The notes below the pieces were generated by a model that was not told the DNA's origin, made no database searches, and worked only from the letters and a program-made list of their open reading frames with translations. A DNA stretch of 64,000 bases. It comes from Octopus vulgaris. Lineage: Eukaryota. Position 1 is the stretch's first letter. Each line of letters opens with the position of its first letter. Position numbers and translations under genes: made by a program. This document shows positions 6,865-64,000 of this stretch, one piece after another. The stretch covers positions 150,226,001 to 150,290,000 of the forward strand of contig OX597814.1 in NCBI GenBank assembly GCA_951406725.2, written 5' to 3'.

Positions 6865-7010
6865 TAAGGAAAATAAGACAAGGTAGAGAATGTCAAAGTA
6901 ATTTTATTATGAAGAACATTTTAGTACCGGTTTCAATCTTTGCGACTTTTTCAACTTAGAGTAAAATATGAAAAACAATTTAATTGTCGAAAAATTAAAT
7001 GAAATGGTTT
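6865..7010 (-). mobile_element. PLE pLTR fragment with U3-A8 HHR motif (same family as 59110-59250)
   Basis: Minus strand: ag-ttgaaaa-agtc-gcaaa-gatt-gaaa-ccgg-ta-ct at about 6917-6962. Downstream sequence is homologous to 59183-59240. Confidence 0.6.
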
Positions 7011-12588: not shown

Positions 12589-12968
12589 CAGGAAGGTGTT
12601 TATAAGCCATTTAAGAAACACACAAAAACCGTTAGATTCACTTCAACATTTAAATTTAATTTGCAAAAATATTTTCGTCGCTTTGAGACCGCGACCTGTG
12701 CACTGACAAAATTCCATGCTCGGCTGACATTATATTTATGATGAGAAATTTTGTCTGGAGGTGATGCAGCACGGAATTTTGTCAGTGAACAGGTCACGGT
12801 CTCAAAGCGACGAAAATATTTTGGCAAATTAAATTTAAATGTTGAAGTGAATCTAACGGTTTTTGTGTGTTTCTTAAATGGCTTATAAACACCTTCCACG
12901 CAACAATTGTTTTCGTTCCAGCACGGGATCTCAGATCAGATCACTTGCTATGCAAGTACATCTCCGTA
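12589..12968 (+). mobile_element. Short PLE-type insertion: pLTR with inverted 5' copy and 13-bp TSD
   Basis: Inverted arms 12591-12720 and 12768-12897 (130 bp, few mismatches). TSD actgttataattg at 12576-12588 and 12969-12981. HHR-like motif in each arm. Confidence 0.85.
12778..12828 (+). ncRNA. Minimal type I hammerhead ribozyme motif with G3-C8 core (GUGAACA)
   Basis: Stem I tttgtca/tggcaaa; core gtgaaca+g; stem II gtc(a/g)c/gcgac; GAAA; palindromic stem III aatatt; UUU triplet. Mirror copy at 12660-12710 on the minus strand. Confidence 0.65.
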
Positions 12969-28171: not shown

Positions 28172-28174
<3 letters not shown>

Positions 28175-29114
28175 CCGGCCAGAATGCTAGAAAAAGATCA
28201 TCAACGATCAAACTACAAGGGAAATTCTCTAGAGGAAGAATTCAGCGAACACCAGAACCAACTTTGGCGGGCAGGACATATGAAAAATTAAATAAATAAC
28301 AGACTTAAATGCATACCTCGGTTTCGGTCTTAACAAAAGAATTACTTGCATAATTCAAGTGTCCGTGACTTCATCAGTACATTCGGTCCTCGAGATGCAA
28401 ACCGCAAGACTAACCCCAGCTCTCTGTGTCAAGACAGACACGTGCTTAGTCTTACTGATTACATCGGGAATAAAATTTCAAATGTCTTGGTTCTGGCGCA
28501 CTGAGAGACTCCTGAAGCGAAGGGCTGCAGTGAATAATTCACTGCGGGTAGTGCTTAATTTTTTAAATATTTAAATAAATACGTTCCCTAGTTGTAAGCA
28601 CTACCCGCAGTGAATTATTCACTGCAGCCCTTCGCCTCAGGAGTCTCTCAGCGCGCCAGAACCAAGTCATTTGAAATTTTATTCCCGATGTAATCAGTAA
28701 GACTAAGCACGTGTCTGTCTTGACACAGAGAGCTGGGGTTAGTCTTGTGGTTTGCATCTCGAGGACCGAATGTACTGATGAAGTCACGGACACTTGAATT
28801 ATGCAAGTAATTCTTTTGTTAAGACCGAAACCGAGGTATGCATTTAAGTCTGTTATTTATTTAATTTTTCATATGTCCTGCCCGCCAAAGTTGGTTCTGG
28901 TGTTCGCTGAATTCTTCCTCTAGAGAATTTCCCTTGTAGTTTGATCGTTGATGATCTTTTTCTAGCATTCTGGCCGGCTACCTAGCAGGCCAGCCCTGCC
29001 AATATACACATATATTTGAATTTTCTCTGACTCCTCAGATTTTTTGAATGCTGGACTACTGGTTTTAAATTGATATTAAAATTAATATTAATTTATCTCC
29101 CTCAATTTTTTAAA

Positions 29115-32503: not shown

Positions 32504-32699
32504 ACATTATTTACATTATTTACATTCGACGGATATTTATCCTCATCTTCTTTGTTGTTAACACAACGTTTCAGCTGATATACCCACCAGCCTTCTTCAG
32601 GTGTTGTGTTAACAACAAACAAGATGAGGCCAAATATCCGTCGAACATAAATAACGTAAATAATGTACATAATTCCTCATCTCTTAAATATAGAACTGT
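32504..32699. mobile_element. Miniature PLE insertion: 64-bp inverted arms around an HHR, with 12-bp TSD, inside a decayed SINE A
   Basis: Arms 32504-32567 and 32603-32666. TSD aaaac(a/g)aaacat at 32496-32507 and 32700-32711. Confidence 0.75.
32560..32605 (-). ncRNA. Minimal hammerhead ribozyme motif (canonical CUGAAGA core)
   Basis: aacac-ctgaaga-a-ggctggt-gggtat-atcagct-gaaa-cg-tt-gtgtt. Confidence 0.75.
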
Positions 32700-43972: not shown

Positions 43973-46630
43973 CCCTACTGCCCCGCCCAACCACCCCCAC
44001 ACACCTCCCCAATCCCTCCCCCTCAGACCTCCACGAGACCTACCACCCCTCCTACTTCTATTCCACCCACCCCTTCTCCACTTCCGTCTGTTGTTACCAT
44101 TCCCCCCGATCTTCCCCTCTCTGCGGCTGAACGCTCCGTCCTTGGTAGGGGTCTGCGTTTCATCCCCCTCACTCCATCCTGTAAGGAATTCCAGACGCGA
44201 GTTGATGTCCACAGCTTTGTGCGCCGTGTCCGGTTGGGTGCGCATTACCACGACTCGCCACCCACACCCAACGAAGAGGACGACTGCTTCACTGGCCTGG
44301 GCCGCCGACCATCCCCGTGGACGCCTGCCCCTGGCCAGATCCTAGCAGTGGATCTTTTCGCGGGCGCTTGTCAGCGTGCGTTGGAGCGGTTCAACTTCTC
44401 CAGGCGCCAACGCCGCCTCAACATCTCCCCGGCTGAGCTCTTGGCTCTTCGTTCCCTCCAACGGCGCGCTGACATTATCATCAAACCGGCTGACAAGGGT
44501 GGAGCTGTAGTGGTGTGGCGCGCGGACCTCTATAGGGCCGAGGCTTTCCGCCAACTCAATGACACCTCCTTCTATTCCCCTCTGCCCTCTAACCCCACAC
44601 GTAGCTACCAACAGACGGTATCCTCTACTGTCCAAGACCTCATCTCGTCCTCCCGTCTCCCCCGCACCGCATCCAACCTAATTGTGCGAACCCCACGTAC
44701 CCCCACCATTTACTTCCTCCCCAAAATCCACAAACCCAACAACCCTGGCCGCCCCATCGTCTCCGCCTGTAACTGCCCCACGGAGCTCATCTCTAAATAC
44801 CTCGACCGTGTCCTTGCCCCCCTAGTGGCATCTCTTCCCTCCCACATCCACGATACCAACCATGCTCTCCGGCTTTTCAACTCTTTCTCCTTTCCTCCCG
44901 GCTCCTCCAAAATCCTTTTTACTATGGACATCCAAAGCCTCTATACTGTTATCCCTCACCACGAAGGACTGCAGGCCCTTCGACACTTTCTTGACCTCCG
45001 CTCTAACCCTGTACCTGACACCTCCACACTCATTCGTCTGGCCGAACTTGTCCTTACTCTGAACTGCTTCTCGTTCGCGGGCGAGTTCTACCATCAGGTC
45101 TCGGGAGTGGCCATGGGAACGCGAATGGGCCCCAACTATGCGAACCTGTTCGTTGGCTATGTTGAGGCCCAAATATTCTCTACTTTCACTGGTCCCACTC
45201 CTGAACTATATGGTCGTTATATTGACGACATTATCGGTGCCACCTCACTCTCCCGCGAACATCTAGATTCCTTCCTCTCTTTCGTCCAATCTTTCTATCC
45301 AGCCCTCCACTTCACTTCCACTATCTCCAACACCTCTGTCTCCTTCCTCGACATTTCGGTTAGCATTCTTGACTCCACTCTTACCACCTCCATTCACTAC
45401 AAACACACAGACTCACACTCATACCTCAACTTCTCTTCCTCCCACCCAGAACACACCAAGCTTTCCATCCCCTATTCCCAATTCCTCCGTCTACGTAGGC
45501 TCTGTAGTGACGACCATGACTTTGAGACTCAGTCTCAACGTATGGCTCACCACTTCACCCTACGTGGATACCCCCTCACCACTATCCACACCGCCCTTGC
45601 CAGAGCACGGTCCGTGGACCGTGTATCTGCTCTCTCTCCCCGAACCCGCCCTGTAGTCTCCCGCCTCCCTTTTCCCCTCACTTACCACCCCACGACCCTA
45701 CGTCTCCAACGCACCATTCTTCGAGCTTTCCGTCGTCTCCAGTCCGACCCGTCCACTTCACACCTCTTCCCTAACCGACCCCTCCCCTCTTTCAAACGAG
45801 CCCACAACCTTCGAGACCTTTTGGTCCATAGCTCCTTCCCTGACCCTACCTCCCAACCCGGCTCGTTCCCCTGCTCCCGCCCACGTTGCCGCACTTGCCC
45901 TTACCTCTCCAACACCACCCGCCTCACTAGCACCCACCATCGACCCTATCCCATCATCCACTCCTTCACCTGCACCTCCAGCAATATTATCTATTGCATC
46001 TCTTGCTCTCTCTGCAATTCCTTGTACATCGGACAAACGGGACGCCGCTTGGCTGACCGGTTCGCGGAACACCTTCGTGACATCCACCTTGCGAACGACA
46101 CACCGGTCTCACGCCATTTCCGCTCCACCGGTCACTCCTTGCAACACCTATCTGTGTTCGGTTTGTCCTTACACAGAGGCCATCCGGATTCCCGTTTGCG
46201 CCGTGAACAGGAATTAATCTTCTCTCTTCGCTCTTATACGCCATTTGGTCTCAACTCTCCCCCCTCCTCATCTAACCCCCCTCTCCCCCTCCTCACCTAT
46301 CCTTTCTCCCCCCGACCCCCACTTCTTCAGTCCTTCATCCTTTCACCCCTACTCCCCTTCCCTTCTTCCCTCTTTCTCCCTCCCTCTTCCCCTTCCCTCT
46401 GCTCCCTCACTCCCTCTCTCCCCTTCTCTCTCCCCCTCTCCCTCTTTCCTCCTTCATCCCTCTCCTCCCCTTCCTTCTCCCCATCCTCTCCACTTCACCC
46501 TCCCCTCCCCCTCTTCTTCCCCTCCCCTTCTCCCCCCTCTTCTCCCCTCCCCCTCTTCTCCTCACTACACCACATGACTTTACACATCACATCACATATG
46601 ATGTGCCATACTAATACACACACCAACTAA
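43973..46630 (+). CDS. PLE reverse transcriptase / GIY-YIG endonuclease (main frame; N-terminal part lies in ORF 43482-44345, one frameshift away)
   Basis: IKPADKGGAVVVW, YFLPKIHK..PGRPIVS, MDIQSLYT.IPH, GVAMGTRMGPNYANLF, RYIDDI, FLDI, SIPYSQFLRLRRLCS, CSRPRCRTC, NIIYCISC..C..LYIGQTGR.L..RF.EH. The frame is open from 43973 (LSAAERSVLGRGLRF). The tail after GLNS is probably run-on. Confidence 0.93.
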   Translation, partial: PYCPAQPPPHTSPIPPPQTSTRPTTPPTSIPPTPSPLPSVVTIPPDLPLSAAERSVLGRGLRFIPLTPSCKEFQTRVDVHSFVRRVRLGAHYHDSPPTPNEEDDCFTGLGRRPSPWTPAPGQILAVDLFAGACQRALERFNFSRRQRRLNISPAELLALRSLQRRADIIIKPADKGGAVVVWRADLYRAEAFRQLNDTSFYSPLPSNPTRSYQQTVSSTVQDLISSSRLPRTASNLIVRTPRTPTIYFLPKIHKPNNPGRPIVSACNCPTELISKYLDRVLAPLVASLPSHIHDTNHALRLFNSFSFPPGSSKILFTMDIQSLYTVIPHHEGLQALRHFLDLRSNPVPDTSTLIRLAELVLTLNCFSFAGEFYHQVSGVAMGTRMGPNYANLFVGYVEAQIFSTFTGPTPELYGRYIDDIIGATSLSREHLDSFLSFVQSFYPALHFTSTISNTSVSFLDISVSILDSTLTTSIHYKHTDSHSYLNFSSSHPEHTKLSIPYSQFLRLRRLCSDDHDFETQSQRMAHHFTLRGYPLTTIHTALARARSVDRVSALSPRTRPVVSRLPFPLTYHPTTLRLQRTILRAFRRLQSDPSTSHLFPNRPLPSFKRAHNLRDLLVHSSFPDPTSQPGSFPCSRPRCRTCPYLSNTTRLTSTHHRPYPIIHSFTCTSSNIIYCISCSLCNSLYIGQTGRRLADRFAEHLRDIHLANDTPVSRHFRSTGHSLQHLSVFGLSLHRGHPDSRLRREQELIFSLRSYTPFGLNSPPSSSNPPLPLLTYPFSPRPPLLQSFILSPLLPFPSSLFLPPSSPSLCSLTPSLPFSLPLSLFPPSSLSSPSFSPSSPLHPPLPLFFPSPSPPSSPLPLFSSLHHMTLHITSHMMCHTNTHTN

Positions 46631-47098: not shown

Positions 47099-47136
47099 TC
47101 TTTCTGTTGAAGAGCGTAGGCTCGAAACGTTAAAGA
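47099..47136 (+). ncRNA. Minimal hammerhead-like motif with variant core CUGUUGA in the PLE pLTR
   Basis: tcttt-ctgttga-a-gagc-gtag-gctc-gaaa-cg-tt-aaaga. Confidence 0.6.
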
Positions 47137-48294: not shown

Positions 48295-49325
48295 TATAAG
48301 GAAAACTATTTGAAAATGCCGAAGTCTTTTAAAATTATTTATTAACTAATCTGGTTTCACTTATTTGAAAAGATTTTCAAAAGTATAGTGTGAGGCTTTG
48401 TGTATATTCTGTAGTGTCAAAAATTAGTTTACGTATATGTACATACACACATACCCATGTGCATGACATGTGCACGCACACGCCGCCTAGACCAGAAAAA
48501 AACACACATATGCACACACACATACACTTACACGCAAATGCACACATATAAACCCCAAAATGCCAATCAAAACTACTGAACCATAACAGAACCAGCTCAC
48601 CAAACAAGCCTTTCTTGGCTCCACAGCTATTGGAACGTTTTGATCATGTGATTGCCATCAACCAGCCACACTGATTTTAGAGGGAAATCAATTCTATGCT
48701 ACCTTTTTCCAAAACACAGAACTATCTTTTGATCACGTGACTGTCATCAACCAACCACATTGGTTTTAAAAAAGAAGGCGATTTTGAACCACCATCTCTA
48801 TATAAAACAGTGGTAAGTGTTAAATTCCATCCAGATGGGAGGCCCTACAACCAGATCCGAAAACTATATATGGTCTGTTATTTCTCTACTCACCGTTTTT
48901 CACTTTAATCTGCTGCAAACAATTATGGTTTCTGATCACAGTGAGACTAAACACTTTAGCACCCACTGATTAACAAACCAGACACGTTTTATCTTCTTGT
49001 CGAAAATTTCTATTACTTGATTTGGATATGTTTATGTAAACTAATTTTTATCTTCTTATCAGTGTAAAAAGTTTTATTACCTCATCTGAATGTTTTTATA
49101 TAAACTATCTTTTGACTGATCACAGAGGATACACAAAGCCCTAAACTTTTCCTCATCACAGTCAAAGACTCTATCACTTGAATACATTTATGTAAACTAA
49201 TTCTGGACACCACAGAGGATACACAATGCATCAAACTTTATTTTTGAAAATCTTTTTAAATAAGTGAAACCGGTTAAGTTAATAAATACTTTTAAAAGGC
49301 TCCTGCATTTTCAGATTAGCCTTAT
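48295..49325. mobile_element. Old non-coding PLE-derived element with ~100-bp inverted termini carrying U3-A8 HHR motifs
   Basis: 48295-48397 is the diverged reverse complement of 49226-49325. Motif ttgaaaa-tctt..aagt-gaaa-ccgg-tt-aagt at 49240-49279. Confidence 0.65.
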
Positions 49326-53306: not shown

Positions 53307-53700
53307 AGGGGGGGGGGGTGTTTCGACGCAGGAAAAATTTGTTGTTGAAAATGCACCTAAGTTTGGAAAACTTGTAATTGTTTAAAATGCATTTATTTAC
53401 ATATATACCAAACTAGTTTCAACAATACATTTTGTTTATCAATAGTAAAAGTATAAAATTATGAACTAGAAAAACATATTTAAAAGTTTCAATGAGTGAC
53501 ATATTTAAATGTTCATAACTGACAAATTCAGAATTATGAATTAGGAGGACAGGTGCAGGAATTTCAATATTGATAAGTTTAAATGTTCATAGCAGTCAAT
53601 AATATTAAAACTGTGCATTAATTTAATTTGAATGTACAAAGCTCATTAATGTTAGTAGTGATCGACAAGAAATGAATATCATCAAAGTTTCAGTCATACT
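53307..53700 (-). mobile_element. PLE-type terminus abutting (TA)n, with U3-A8 HHR-like motif
   Basis: Minus strand 53406-53447: tacta-ttgataa-acaa-aatgta-ttgt(t)-gaaa-ctag-tt-tggta. Confidence 0.55.
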
Positions 53701-54189: not shown

Positions 54190-55175
54190 TTCTTTTCAGA
54201 TATAATCAGAAAAAGGTAATAAAAATTCATTAAAATGACAGAACTATCGAACTTTCAAAGGGGCCAAATTGTTGGTGTTCGTATGGCAGGCGCTAGCGTA
54301 ACGAAAACAGCCGAAATGTTCGGTGTATCATGAAGTACTGTCACAAAAGTAATGACAGACTTTGAGAAAGAGGGAAAACCCTCCTCATCGAAACCAAAAC
54401 TTTCAGATAGGGACTGTCAGATTCTTATGCGAATTGTTAGAAAGGATCACAAAAGTACAGCTCCCAAAATTACTGCAGGACTTAATGGCCACCTCGAGAA
54501 TCCAGTTTCCCTAAAACCTGTTCAACAGGAGCTGCACGACGTTGGATTTCACGAGAGGGCTGCAATCAGAAAACCACTACTTTCCGACCACCGGCCGAGT
54601 ATACGTGTGGAGACAGCCAAAAGAAGCATCTGACCCAGACTGTTAAACATGGAGGAGGATCTGTGATGATCCGGTGGGGGCTATATCTTGGAAATCCTAT
54701 GGCCCAATGGTTTCTCCTCATGGCAGAATTAATAGTCAAGACTATTTAAGCATTTTATCTGATCAAATTCATCCTGTGGTTGCTGAACTGTTTCCAGAGG
54801 GAAATGTAATCTTTCATGATGTTAATGCACTAATTCACACAGCTAAAGTTGTTATTGAATGGCACGAGGATCATTCTAGTGAAGTTGAACATCTTATCTG
54901 GCCACCGCAGTCCCCAGATCCCAATATTATTGAACATTTAAGGTACATTTTAGAAAAACAAATAAGGAGTCGATATCCTCCACTATCATCACTACAAGAA
55001 CTGGAGACTGCTTTAGTTGAAGAATGGACAAAAGTTCCTTTGGAAATAATTCAAACTTTGTACGAGTCCATAACTTGTCGAATTCAAGCTGTAATTACTG
55101 CCAAAGGCAGTCCTACCCCATGTTAACATAAATTTGTCTGAAATTTTAAGGCGTTTCAATTATTTTGTCCATACC

Positions 55176-58034: not shown

Positions 58035-58330
58035 GTTTAAGTAATTGAGATTCAAGTGAGTTCTAATGAATTCACATGAATATGGTCCTTAACTAGGATG
58101 CACCAGAAATCTATATGGTGTTAACCATACGACAAAGTGGGGTGATTACAAATAGGAAAAAAGCAACAAGAATGGATCAATATATCGGTACAATTGTTTC
58201 GTACGAGGACATCTTTAATAAAGCTACAAACATTGCAGTAAATATAGGTGGCTCGTACTCATCAGCCGAAAAAACATCAGAGATTCCCAAACATCAAAGG
58301 GGGTAATGTTACACTTATAAAACATCATGG
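58035..58330 (-). mobile_element. PLE pLTR fragment abutting (TA)n
   Basis: Contains a canonical HHR. Terminus is related to 41770-41870. Confidence 0.75.
58185..58269 (-). ncRNA. Canonical type I hammerhead ribozyme motif
   Basis: tcgg-ctgatga-gtacgag-(long loop)-ctcgtac-gaaa-caattg-ta-ccga. All stems pair, stem III is palindromic and the triplet is GUA. Confidence 0.85.
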
Positions 58331-59153
58331 AAAATTCTATAAAAATGAGAATTTAGATAACATATTGGTTTCTAAGAGTTCAATTAGTATTACACAGTCA
58401 TATATCAGGTTATTAAAAAAAATTTTTTTAAAACATCCTAGTTTTCCACAGAGTGAAGATAAAAATGAGGGTATATACACCCGTGTGACTCTCTCTCACT
58501 TGCTTTCATTCCTTCCCCTTTTATTTCTGTCACCCTGTCTCTCCCTCTTGTATTCCTAGCCTTTCTCCTTCCTCTTCATCCACTTCCCCCTCCTTTTCTC
58601 TGTCGCTCCTTCTCCCTAGTGTCTTTCTCTTCTGCTTGCTGCTATCACATGACCAGTGGTCAGTTCCAATTTTCTTCCTTTCTTAGACTAGTCCCTTATC
58701 TGACTAGTCGCAAATTCTGTCTCTCCATCCTTCAAAACATTTTCGAAGTGTTACCCACTATTCTCGTCTCCTTGACCCCCAAGGCCGTATTTTGTTCGAC
58801 CTTGTGTCGTTTTACTTGTTTTATTTCGTTTTGTTTGCTTTCGTCCCTAATTCCCCGCAAGAAAACTTATTTTGCGGGCACCGCTAATTGGGAAGCACTC
58901 AGTTTTATCGTTAAAGGTGCAAAACTGAACAGTACCATTGGTCGATAACTGATGAAAAATTATGGACTTTCTGTTTGTCTCCCGTTCGTTTTTACATTCA
59001 GTATATGTTACGTCGTTTGTTTATTCATTTTTTCATTTATCAGGTAATGGAACGCAACACACACCGCATTTGTATTAACAAGTAAGTTATATATATATAT
59101 ATAAACTTTTAAAAAAAGTTTTCTTTTAATTTTTCTAAATTTAATTATTTAAT

Positions 59154-59200
59154 CATTACAGTTGAAAAGGTCTCAAATGACCGAAACCGGTACTGAAATG
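59154..59200 (+). ncRNA. Minimal hammerhead ribozyme motif with U3-A8 core (UUGAAAA)
   Basis: cattacag-ttgaaaa-ggtc-tcaaat-gacc-gaaa-ccgg-ta-ctgaaatg. Stem I pairs at 7 of 8 positions. Lies about 50 bp upstream of a (TA)n junction. Confidence 0.75.
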
Positions 59201-59246
59201 TCTTAATAAAATTATTTTAGCATTTTCTATCTTGACTTGTTTTTTC

Positions 59247-59325
<79 letters not shown>

Positions 59326-62369: not shown

Positions 62370-64000
62370 GATCAATAAATGGTGGGGTTGTGTTGACCGC
62401 ACGTGGAGAAATGATAAGTAAGGAAAAATTTTTTTAAAAATGCAGAATGCTCAAATGAAAGAAAATTTTAATAAAATGAGAAATTGATAAAATATATAAA
62501 TATATATTTATTCAACCGGTTTTCGTCATTGTACGACTTGTCAAGAATATTTATGTTTTAAAAAGTTTTTTTTTAAATTAGAAAGGGGAAAAAAAGAAAA
62601 TTGCATTGTTTTTTGTAAAAGAATAATGATAAAAATGTACAAAAATTAAAAATAAGTTCTCCGATACATTGTGAGTTCGTTGTGTATCTTGAGTTTTATG
62701 GTTGTTTACGAAAAAATTACCTTGAGGTGTTAAGATCCAAAGGGATTAAGAGCATGTGTTGTGTTGTTAAATTCAGCATGTTTGCAGGACAGGAAGTAGT
62801 AGTAATTGTGGTCCTGGTTCTTCAGTTCCTGTGTTGTGAGTAAGGGGAGACAACTCTTTTGAGTTCTTCAATAAAACCCAAATTATAAAATTATCATTTT
62901 AGCTTCATTTGCGTTATCTTTTTTATATAATTGCTTGTTAACTTAACTTTCAGATTTTAACACTTTATTTATATTATTTTCTAATTATATAAATCTGCAT
63001 AGACAATTGCATTTCAAATTGTCATATCATTTATAATAAAAATGATAGTAATAACAACAATAGTAAAAATGATACTTAAAGAATATAAGTTTTAGCTTGA
63101 AGTGATGAATGCATGGTATCTTTAAATATTTGTGTTAGTCCATCCATGAAGAGTGAGGTAGAGAAAGGAAGTTTGATCAACGAGGAGTTTGCATATTAAG
63201 TTGTGTTTGGAATTTTTCAATAAAGAGATTCTCCTTGTTAATTCTCTCCTGTGTGGTGATCCCGTCTTTACATTGGTAGAAGGGGAATATATAGAATTTG
63301 GGGTTTAAGTCTTTAGCACATGAGTCTAAGTGGTCACTCAGTGGAATTTGTCGGTATTCCGGGAGATTTATTTGTTCTTTATGCACCGTTACTCGTTTAC
63401 GTAACGGGAGACTCGTTTGTCCAACATAATTATGTTGGCAACCAGCGCATGTGAGAACGTAGATAAGGTTCTCGGAGGAACAGGAGAAGTTAGTCTTGAT
63501 TTTAAACTTCGTACCTTGTTTGAAGGTAAATTCAGAGCCTTCAAGTAGAAAGGGGCAGGTACCACAGTTTGAGCGTGCACATTTTTTTACTGTTGGGGGT
63601 GGATGTGGTGTGTGAAGTTTGGCAGGCATTTGTCAAGAGTTTTTTTAAAGATTTGTGTTGCCTTTTGCATTTGAGGATTTTGTGTGTATTTATAATGTTT
63701 TTCATTTTTGGGTCTGTTGACAGTAAACTGAGGTTTTGTATGATTGTGGTGTATGCTTCGATATTTTTGGGGTTGTGGGTGGAAATGTATGGAAGTATTT
63801 TGAGGTTGTGTGTGGTGTTAGGTTGGGTGGTTTTCAGTGTAGTGTTGTCTAGTTCTTTGGCGCGTTTTATTCCATACTCTATAAGGGTGGAGGGATATTG
63901 ACGTTGTAATAGTGTTTTTTTGAGGTCTTGAAGGCGTATTTCTCGTGTTTTTGGATCCGAGACAATGGTGCATACCCTTTTAGCTAAATTGAAAGGGATA
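62370..64000 (-). mobile_element. Penelope-like element (Neptune-like), running off the window edge
   Basis: Minus strand: IPFNLAKRVCTIVSD...LLQRQYP (RT thumb), then after a frameshift CARSNCGTCP..FSCSSENLIYVLTCAGCQHNYVGQT..LRKRVTVH (GIY-YIG; stop at 63177). The 3' UTR/pLTR ends at (TA)n. Confidence 0.92.
62509..62549 (-). ncRNA. Minimal hammerhead-like motif with U3-A8 core (UUGACAA)
   Basis: tattc-ttgacaa-gtcgt-aca-atgac-gaaa(a)-ccgg-tt-gaata. One extra A in the GAAA segment. Confidence 0.6.

What the first reader, a model, noticed from the sequence alone, without database searches (positions are those of the whole stretch)
59154..59200. U3-A8 hammerhead cores recur in at least four unrelated PLE termini
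Seen: UUGAAAA (59162, about 6948-6954, 49244 and its mirror near 48375), UUGAUAA (53436-53442) and UUGACAA (62538-62544). Each is followed by a stem II, GAAA and a palindromic stem III (ACCGGU or ACUAGU), with different flanking sequences. Position 7 varies while U3 and A8 stay paired. Established: U3:A8 is a known but uncommon natural variant. Inference: it is a major HHR type in this genome. With the C3-G8 and G3-C8 cases, three of the four Watson-Crick 3-8 pairs occur within 64 kb.
Basis: partly seen in the sequence, partly recalled or inferred. Interest (0 to 1): 0.78.

Follow-up and report, generated by a model that had tools for sequence, protein, structure and literature searches.

The report
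Hammerheads swap all four core pairs
The flagged motifs are hammerhead-ribozyme-shaped sequences at the ends of Penelope-like retrotransposons, and across this animal genome related transposon families carry all four Watson-Crick versions of one catalytic-core base pair, which likely means these untested RNAs are selected to keep the self-cleaving fold.

Summary
The motifs are real. 59159-59195 is a minimal type I hammerhead (HHR) with a U3-A8 core. Its pattern has 9,064 exact matches genome-wide against 77 for the reversed control. Two claims fail. The elements are not unrelated: 59162 and 6954 are 75% identical, and the families' RT-endonuclease proteins (52-61% identical) fall in one group. 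U3-A8 is also a minority type, 8 of 41 Watson-Crick hits in a 0.99-Mb systematic sample against 27 C3-G8. U3-A8 in Penelope HHRs is already published (PMC4209133, ~1,300 hits in Schistosoma). The stronger result lies beyond the finding. G3-C8 has 11,047 matches against 156 plus a second, ORF-linked family. A3-U8, the fourth pair, has roughly 890 ORF-linked copies with a covarying stem I. A U3·G8 wobble subfamily exists, and retrozyme sister subfamilies 90% identical differ as U3-A8 versus C3-G8. 21 of 22 multi-copy clusters are Watson-Crick at 3/8. I found no natural G3-C8 or A3-U8 family in the papers I could read, but three key papers were unavailable. Cleavage is untested.

The parts
59159..59195 (+). 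Minimal type I HHR, family A: stem I 59159-61/59193-95, core U3 59162 to A9 59168 (A8 59167), stem II 59169-82, palindrome 59186-91, predicted cleavage after A17 59192
59088..59250 (+). Solo 3' end (pLTR-like) of PLE family A between (TA)n tracts; full-length relatives carry an RT-GIY-YIG ORF about 700 nt upstream of the HHR
6923..6956 (-). Older family-A-related HHR, U3-A8, stem I reduced to 2 bp
49240..49279 (+). Family-B-type HHR, U3-A8 with U10.1-U11.1 mismatch
48345..48384 (-). Inverted partner of 49244, U3-A8, palindrome broken
53406..53447 (-). Family E HHR, U3-A8, palindrome ACTAGT, one extra U before GAAA; relatives lie downstream of PLE thumb/endonuclease sequence
62509..62549 (-). 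Family D HHR, U3-A8, one extra A in the GAAA box, about 640 nt downstream of a PLE ORF
63177..64000 (-). 3' part of the family D PLE ORF (thumb, GIY-YIG), continuing beyond the window into L068
12778..12828 (+). G3-C8 HHR of a ~200-nt element with about 11,000 exact copies; inverted partial partner near 12705
58185..58269 (-). Canonical C3-G8 HHR with long stem II
32560..32605 (-). Canonical C3-G8 HHR with 4-nt palindrome

Best explanation
These are minimal type I hammerhead motifs in the 3' terminal repeats of Penelope-like retrotransposons and their non-autonomous derivatives, predicted to self-cleave as dimers through the palindromic helix III, and likely kept under selection for the base pair between core positions 3 and 8 rather than for its letters. 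Shown: the anatomy, the copy numbers, the link to RT-GIY-YIG ORFs, and multi-copy families with C3-G8, U3-A8, G3-C8, A3-U8 and U3·G8. Inferred: one PLE lineage switched C3-G8 to U3-A8 early, and A3-U8, G3-C8 and U3·G8 arose later inside it; a retrozyme lineage made the U3-A8/C3-G8 switch separately. The 3-8 pair belongs to the active conformation (recalled from the full-length crystal structure), so its repeated restoration points to selection on cleavage, probably to process element RNA ends. Most genomic copies, including four of the five window sites, are truncated and decaying.
For: Counts versus reversed control: U3-A8 9,064/77; G3-C8 11,047/156; C3-G8 6,113/1,098 and 14,898/242; short-stem-II pattern with 3 and 8 left free 3,069/0, and of its first 100 listed 60 U3-A8, 29 A3-U8, 7 U3·G8, 4 other single mismatches (my count). 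With 3 and 8 free, 98 of 100 listed retrozyme matches are U3-A8; a C3-G8 sister subfamily is 89-91% identical to the closest U3-A8 units. A3-U8 stem I keeps pairing while its letters change (9 of 12 distinct A3-U8 copies have 3-6 bp, 3 have 1). The two G3-C8 families show a compensatory stem I swap. Clusters: 21 of 22 Watson-Crick, permutation mean 8.3, 0 of 20,000 as high. ORF links. Tree of 18 proteins needs 4 label changes, the minimum; A3-U8 is sister to U3-A8 family D at 99/99. The predicted 59162 homodimer contains stems I, II and the intermolecular palindrome helix, -29.1 versus -21.6 kcal/mol for two monomers.
Against: No cleavage data. Cores expected to be impaired are also high-copy here: 20 of 23 sampled copies of one C3-G8 family have U at position 6, and 11 of 23 of a sister family have C at position 4, so amplification alone does not prove catalysis. 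Families are not independent (about four double changes in all) and many loci were picked by patterns that fixed the pair, so the permutation value overstates the evidence. The branch separating the non-C3-G8 group from the nearest C3-G8 family is only 85/89, 89/92 and 42/72, from two C3-G8 families only. Folding predicts U3 pairing with A17 in family A and G3 with U17 in the large G3-C8 family, which would compete with the active core; A3-U8 copies (2-bp stem II) and sites 6954, 49244 and 53442 do not fold as hammerheads at minimum energy. The large G3-C8 family had no RT upstream in 12 of 12 loci.
Confidence: 0.78

Rival explanations
1. The fold is selected, but as a non-cleaving signal (for example for RT binding, template choice or RNA dimerisation); the 3-8 pair is kept for shape, not chemistry.
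For: Published PLE minimal HHRs cleave poorly in vitro and the authors do not exclude other functions (PMC4209133). High-copy U6 and C4 core variants, extra nucleotides, U-U at 10.1/11.1 and 2-bp stem II occur here.
Against: G5, G12-A13-A14, A15.1-U16.1 and a non-G position 17 are retained in the families inspected (these were partly fixed by the search patterns). The 3-8 pair is a feature of the active state (recalled).
Confidence: 0.16
2. U3-A8 is a product of AT-biased or CpG decay of C3-G8 that was amplified by chance with active masters; no selection on the pair.
For: C-to-T and G-to-A are the commonest decay changes, the genome is AT-rich, and G8 follows C7 in some families. A U3·G8 subfamily amplified (7 of 100 listed).
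Against: A3-U8 and G3-C8 need double transversions and G3-C8 gains GC. Neutral change would leave mostly single-change, unpaired families; only the wobble was seen. One of 22 clusters was non-paired, and it looks like a secondary match inside family E loci.
Confidence: 0.05
3. The motifs are chance matches in AT-rich repeats.
For: Loose patterns are mostly background: ATGANTA with a long spacer 2,764 versus 2,199; GTGANCA with C..G tail 1,641 versus 1,449.
Against: 70- to 120-fold excess over controls for the specific patterns, position downstream of PLE ORFs, covarying stems.
Confidence: 0.01

Closest known systems
Minimal type I HHRs of Penelope-like elements (Cervera and de la Pena 2014, PMC4209133; read parts 1-2 of 4 and supplement file 2 parts 1-2 of 3)
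   Same: Type I topology, short helix I, palindromic helix III, location in PLE terminal repeats, mostly solo copies, inverted pairs; U3-A8 reported there with about 1,300 hits in S. mansoni beside about 2,000 C3-G8 hits.
   Different: Their alignment of 56 representatives shows U3-A8 twice and U3·G8 once, no G3-C8 and no A3-U8. Here all four pairs occur in multi-copy families of one genome, several with a 2-bp stem II.
Natural core variants of Perreault et al. 2011 (PMC3088659; passages and part 3 of 8 read)
   Same: Natural C3-G8 to U3-A8 covariation, U10.1-U11.1 mismatch, 2-bp stem II and weak stem III are described.
   Different: No G3-C8 or A3-U8 in the passages read; rare examples rather than families of thousands.
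Non-LTR retrozymes (PMC7229834, passages; bioRxiv 10.64898/2026.07.22.740005, part 1 of 5)
   Same: Tandem ~358-nt non-coding units with one type I HHR each (L198, L199, L216-L234, L103).
   Different: Here sister subfamilies differ by a U3-A8/C3-G8 double change; circular RNA not tested.
Small HHR variants of PLEs that cleave as dimers (Lunse, Weinberg, Breaker; seen only as a reference entry in PMC6765202, text not held)
   Same: Diminished stem III, PLE association, dimer cleavage (title and review passage).
   Different: Cannot tell whether their alignments include G3-C8 or A3-U8.

Membership tests
Minimal type I hammerhead of PLEs | Core CUGANGA, or a 3/8 covariant of it | tested here: met
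   U3-A8 at all cited sites; literal C3-G8 absent, covariant published
Minimal type I hammerhead of PLEs | Helix I closing the motif and helix II before GAAA | tested here: met
   59162: 3 and 4 bp; the other sites are weaker or carry a mismatch or an extra base
Minimal type I hammerhead of PLEs | Palindromic helix III and a non-G position 17 | tested here: met
   Met at 5 of 6 sites; palindrome broken at 48380
Minimal type I hammerhead of PLEs | Located in the terminal repeat of an RT-GIY-YIG element | tested here: met
   Directly for 62544; through other copies for families A and E; only indirectly for 49244, whose nearest relatives link by clustering to the ORF-bearing L195 type
Minimal type I hammerhead of PLEs | Site-specific self-cleavage, as a dimer | not testable with these tools
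   Only folding predictions
Rfam hammerhead families | Match to a curated covariance model | tested here: inconclusive
   None among the 150 listed of 263 matches; 113 weaker ones not shown
EN+ Penelope-like elements | Single ORF with RT and C-terminal GIY-YIG; inverted 5' copies | tested here: met
   Atlas best clusters carry GIY-YIG and HTH_animal at score 0.98
Neptune/Nematis PLE clades | CX2-5CxxC linker before the endonuclease | tested here: met
   Seen in 5 of 6 aligned rows, the sixth is frameshifted there; definition from PMC8557442
Neptune/Nematis PLE clades | Placement among reference PLE RTs | not tested
   No named reference RTs were in the trees
Non-LTR retrozymes (L198/L216 type, not in the window) | Short non-coding tandem units with one HHR each | tested here: met
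   Period 353-362 nt
Non-LTR retrozymes (L198/L216 type, not in the window) | Expressed as circular RNA | not tested
   No reads were laid on these units

The most novel reading that the evidence does not exclude
One clade of Penelope-like retrotransposons has walked the hammerhead's 3-8 core pair through every Watson-Crick state (C-G to U-A, then to A-U and to G-C, with a living U·G wobble subfamily), giving the first natural multi-copy G3-C8 and A3-U8 ribozymes and evolutionary evidence that these slow minimal hammerheads are selected for the catalytically active fold.
Probability: 0.45. Interest if true: 0.68.

Novelty: new variant of a known kind. Interest (0 to 1): 0.55.

Why it matters
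Whether the minimal hammerheads of Penelope-like elements do anything is open: they cleave poorly in vitro (PMC4209133) and whole PLE clades thrive without them (PMC8557442). Complete covariation of a pair that belongs to the active core is a direct evolutionary signature of function, and it supplies natural matched variants for a rescue experiment. In practice, descriptors fixed on CUGANGA would miss over 20,000 exact-match motifs in this genome. The U3-A8 observation on its own is already known.

Tried and rejected
A first A3-U8 candidate (ATGACTAC pattern, 205 versus 32) was rejected: no stem I in the 30 loci inspected, and it is the decayed tail of a short repeat seen with a different core in L192. 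A family with a C3/U8 core sits beside long RT-like ORFs and lacks stems. My early patterns required at least 11 nt between the boxes and so missed the true A3-U8 family. The pattern was one base too long for the C3-G8 sister subfamily, so its 98 of 100 covers the U3-A8 subfamilies only. No PLE ORF was found upstream of 20 of 20 C3-G8 loci or 12 of 12 large-family G3-C8 loci. RNA: no RNA holder listed; contigs of 4 runs guessed to be RNA cover the family A end but show no joint at the AG before U3, which is no evidence either way; cross-species variation of the G3-C8 unit remains unexamined. A3-U8 plus G3-C8 as one clade: not rejected, not shown (p-AU 0.22). Reversed and complemented controls are the same set. 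Literature: nine completed searches and a tenth gave no natural G3-C8 or A3-U8 report; the one G3-C8 mention read (PMC3884650) is an engineered variant. Lunse 2017, Przybilski and Hammann 2007 and Seehafer 2011 were not held; supplement file 1 of PMC4209133 and bioRxiv supplements could not be seen and may bear on novelty. Three look-ups of earlier scan findings were empty.

Full report
Observation. The window lies in a 2.8-Gb animal genome of 227 contigs. All cited cores are present. At 59162 the anatomy is that of a minimal type I hammerhead: a 3-bp stem I, core TTGAAAA (U3 59162, A8 59167), a 4-bp stem II, GAAA, the palindrome ACCGGT and A17 at 59192. The other sites are less clean: a 2-bp stem I at 6954, a U-U mismatch opening stem II at 49244, a broken palindrome in its mirror at 48380, an extra U at 53442 and an extra A at 62544. 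A structural descriptor gave 5 hits in the window against 8 in 50 shuffles together. Genome-wide the U3-A8 pattern with this palindrome has 9,064 matches against 77 for the reversed pattern. Of 30 loci picked by DNA similarity to the 59162 element, 28 displayed TTGAAAA; two lacked the exact anchor and were not displayed.

What the elements are. Copies are mostly short 3' ends beside (TA)n tracts, often as inverted pairs. Longer copies carry an RT-GIY-YIG ORF upstream of the motif: L192 for family A (HHR about 700 nt after the stop), L195 for a B-type subfamily, L068 and window 63177-64000 for family D (62544), and L262, L263, L264, L273, L276 for family E (53442). The linker has the CX4CxxC motif used to define Neptune and Nematis PLEs. 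So 'PLE termini' holds, directly for 62544 and through relatives for the rest; the link for 49244 is indirect.

They are not unrelated. 59162 and 6954 are 75% identical over 150 nt. Proteins of families A, B and D are 57% identical, family E pieces 52-61% to A or B, the nearest C3-G8 family (L110) 42-46%, and the window's intact ORF at 43973 about 28%. In trees the U3-A8 families group apart from the two C3-G8 families with moderate support: 85/98, 89/92, 85/89, but 42/72. One origin of U3-A8 is likely but not shown. Rows were chosen by hand from loci with enough coding sequence; broken frames were read with X; one 76-residue row was dropped.

How common. Exact counts against control: C3-G8 6,113/1,098 and 14,898/242 for two tails, long-stem families not counted; G3-C8 11,047/156; U3-A8 9,064/77 plus about 1,840 short-stem copies estimated. 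The patterns differ in breadth, so these are rough. In 99 systematically spaced 10-kb stretches the descriptor gave 54 hits, 41 Watson-Crick (27 C-G, 8 U-A, 6 G-C, 0 A-U), against 7 in the reversed control; a stricter version gave 29 hits (16, 5, 3, 0) against 2. Homology probes assigned 70 copies to C3-G8 lineages, 9 to U3-A8 and 6 to G3-C8, with 3 more U3-A8 and 3 A3-U8-family matches from short-stem probes. U3-A8 is thus a substantial minority. It is published for PLE hammerheads: about 1,300 hits in S. mansoni (PMC4209133); natural U3-A8 and U10.1-U11.1 are in PMC3088659.

The larger result. With positions 3 and 8 left free, a pattern for motifs with a 2-bp stem II matched 3,069 places against 0; of the first 100 listed, 60 are U3-A8, 29 A3-U8, 7 U3·G8 and 4 other mismatches (my count; listed matches come from the start of one contig). 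A3-U8 copies keep stem I through changed letters (9 of 12 distinct copies have 3-6 bp) and lie downstream of PLE ORFs in L313, L321, L324 and L075. G3-C8 occurs in a ~200-nt element without a nearby ORF (30 of 30 distinct aligned copies G/C, many selected by pattern) and in a second family that is ORF-linked in L334, L339 and L341; their stem I arms differ by a compensatory swap. In a tandem ~358-nt retrozyme-like family, C3-G8 units are 89-91% identical to the closest U3-A8 units and sit among them in the tree. Clustering 251 distinct hits from all loci gave 22 multi-copy clusters: 10 C-G, 8 U-A, 2 A-U, 1 G-C and 1 unpaired. On the longest protein alignment A3-U8 is sister to U3-A8 family D (99/99), G3-C8 nests in the same group (93/96), U3·G8 nests in U3-A8 family I, and four label changes suffice.

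Mechanism. Following the published model (PMC4209133; PMC6765202 passages), helix III is too short in a monomer, so two copies pair through the palindrome and each cleaves after position 17, trimming element RNA. The predicted homodimer of 59162 has this arrangement and is 7.5 kcal/mol below two monomers. The 3-8 pair is part of the active core (recalled); engineered swaps were reported active (passage in PMC3088659). About four independent double changes all ended paired, and the only single-change family seen is a wobble. I read this as selection on the active fold.

Against. No cleavage or RNA-end data exist here. High-copy families with U6 (20 of 23 sampled) or C4 (11 of 23) show that odd cores amplify. 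Folding predicts position 3 pairing with position 17 in family A and in the large G3-C8 family, by analogy with the inactive C3-G17 state discussed in PMC3884650. Short-stem variants do not adopt the hammerhead fold at minimum energy. Sampling was biased by patterns, and families share ancestry.

Novelty and verdict. The finding as written is a real but known variant, with its independence and dominance overstated. Natural multi-copy G3-C8 and A3-U8 families were not found in ten searches or in the 56-motif alignment of PMC4209133, but three key papers could not be read. New variant of a known kind; interest 0.55.

Noticed in passing
window 47104-47135 (+) and 56485 (-): HHR-like motif of the intact PLE at 43973-46630 has core CTGTTGA (U at position 6); 20 of 23 family copies in the 0.99-Mb sample keep U6 while position 7 varies.
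   Followed up: partly
sample loci L061-L160: A sister C3-G8 family has C at position 4 in 11 of 23 sampled copies.
   Followed up: partly
window 59154-59161: The sequence just before U3 in family A (pyrimidine tract, then TTACAG) resembles a 3' splice site; in D. virilis Penelope an intron ends at helix I (PMC4209133). No spliced joint was seen in 4 contig sets.
   Followed up: partly
window 43973-46630 (+): Open 885-aa PLE frame (RVT_1, weak GIY-YIG), with a 95% identical partial copy in L146.
   Followed up: partly
window 63177-64000 with L068:6-4644: Inverted two-copy PLE structure with an HHR at each outer end (62544 minus; L068:5287 plus), both with the extra A.
   Followed up: yes
L198, L199, L216-L234, L103, L098: Tandem ~358-nt retrozyme-like repeats with U3-A8 and C3-G8 subfamilies.
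   Followed up: yes
L016, L017: The G3-C8 element is fused to a family A end at an inverted junction.
   Followed up: no
window 54647-55126 (+): DDE_3 transposase fragment.
   Followed up: no
window 28172-28980: An 800-nt near-perfect palindrome, 96.6%.
   Followed up: no
L342:2575: A further G3-C8 motif with a 6-bp stem II and a different helix III segment, similar to the large G3-C8 family.
   Followed up: partly
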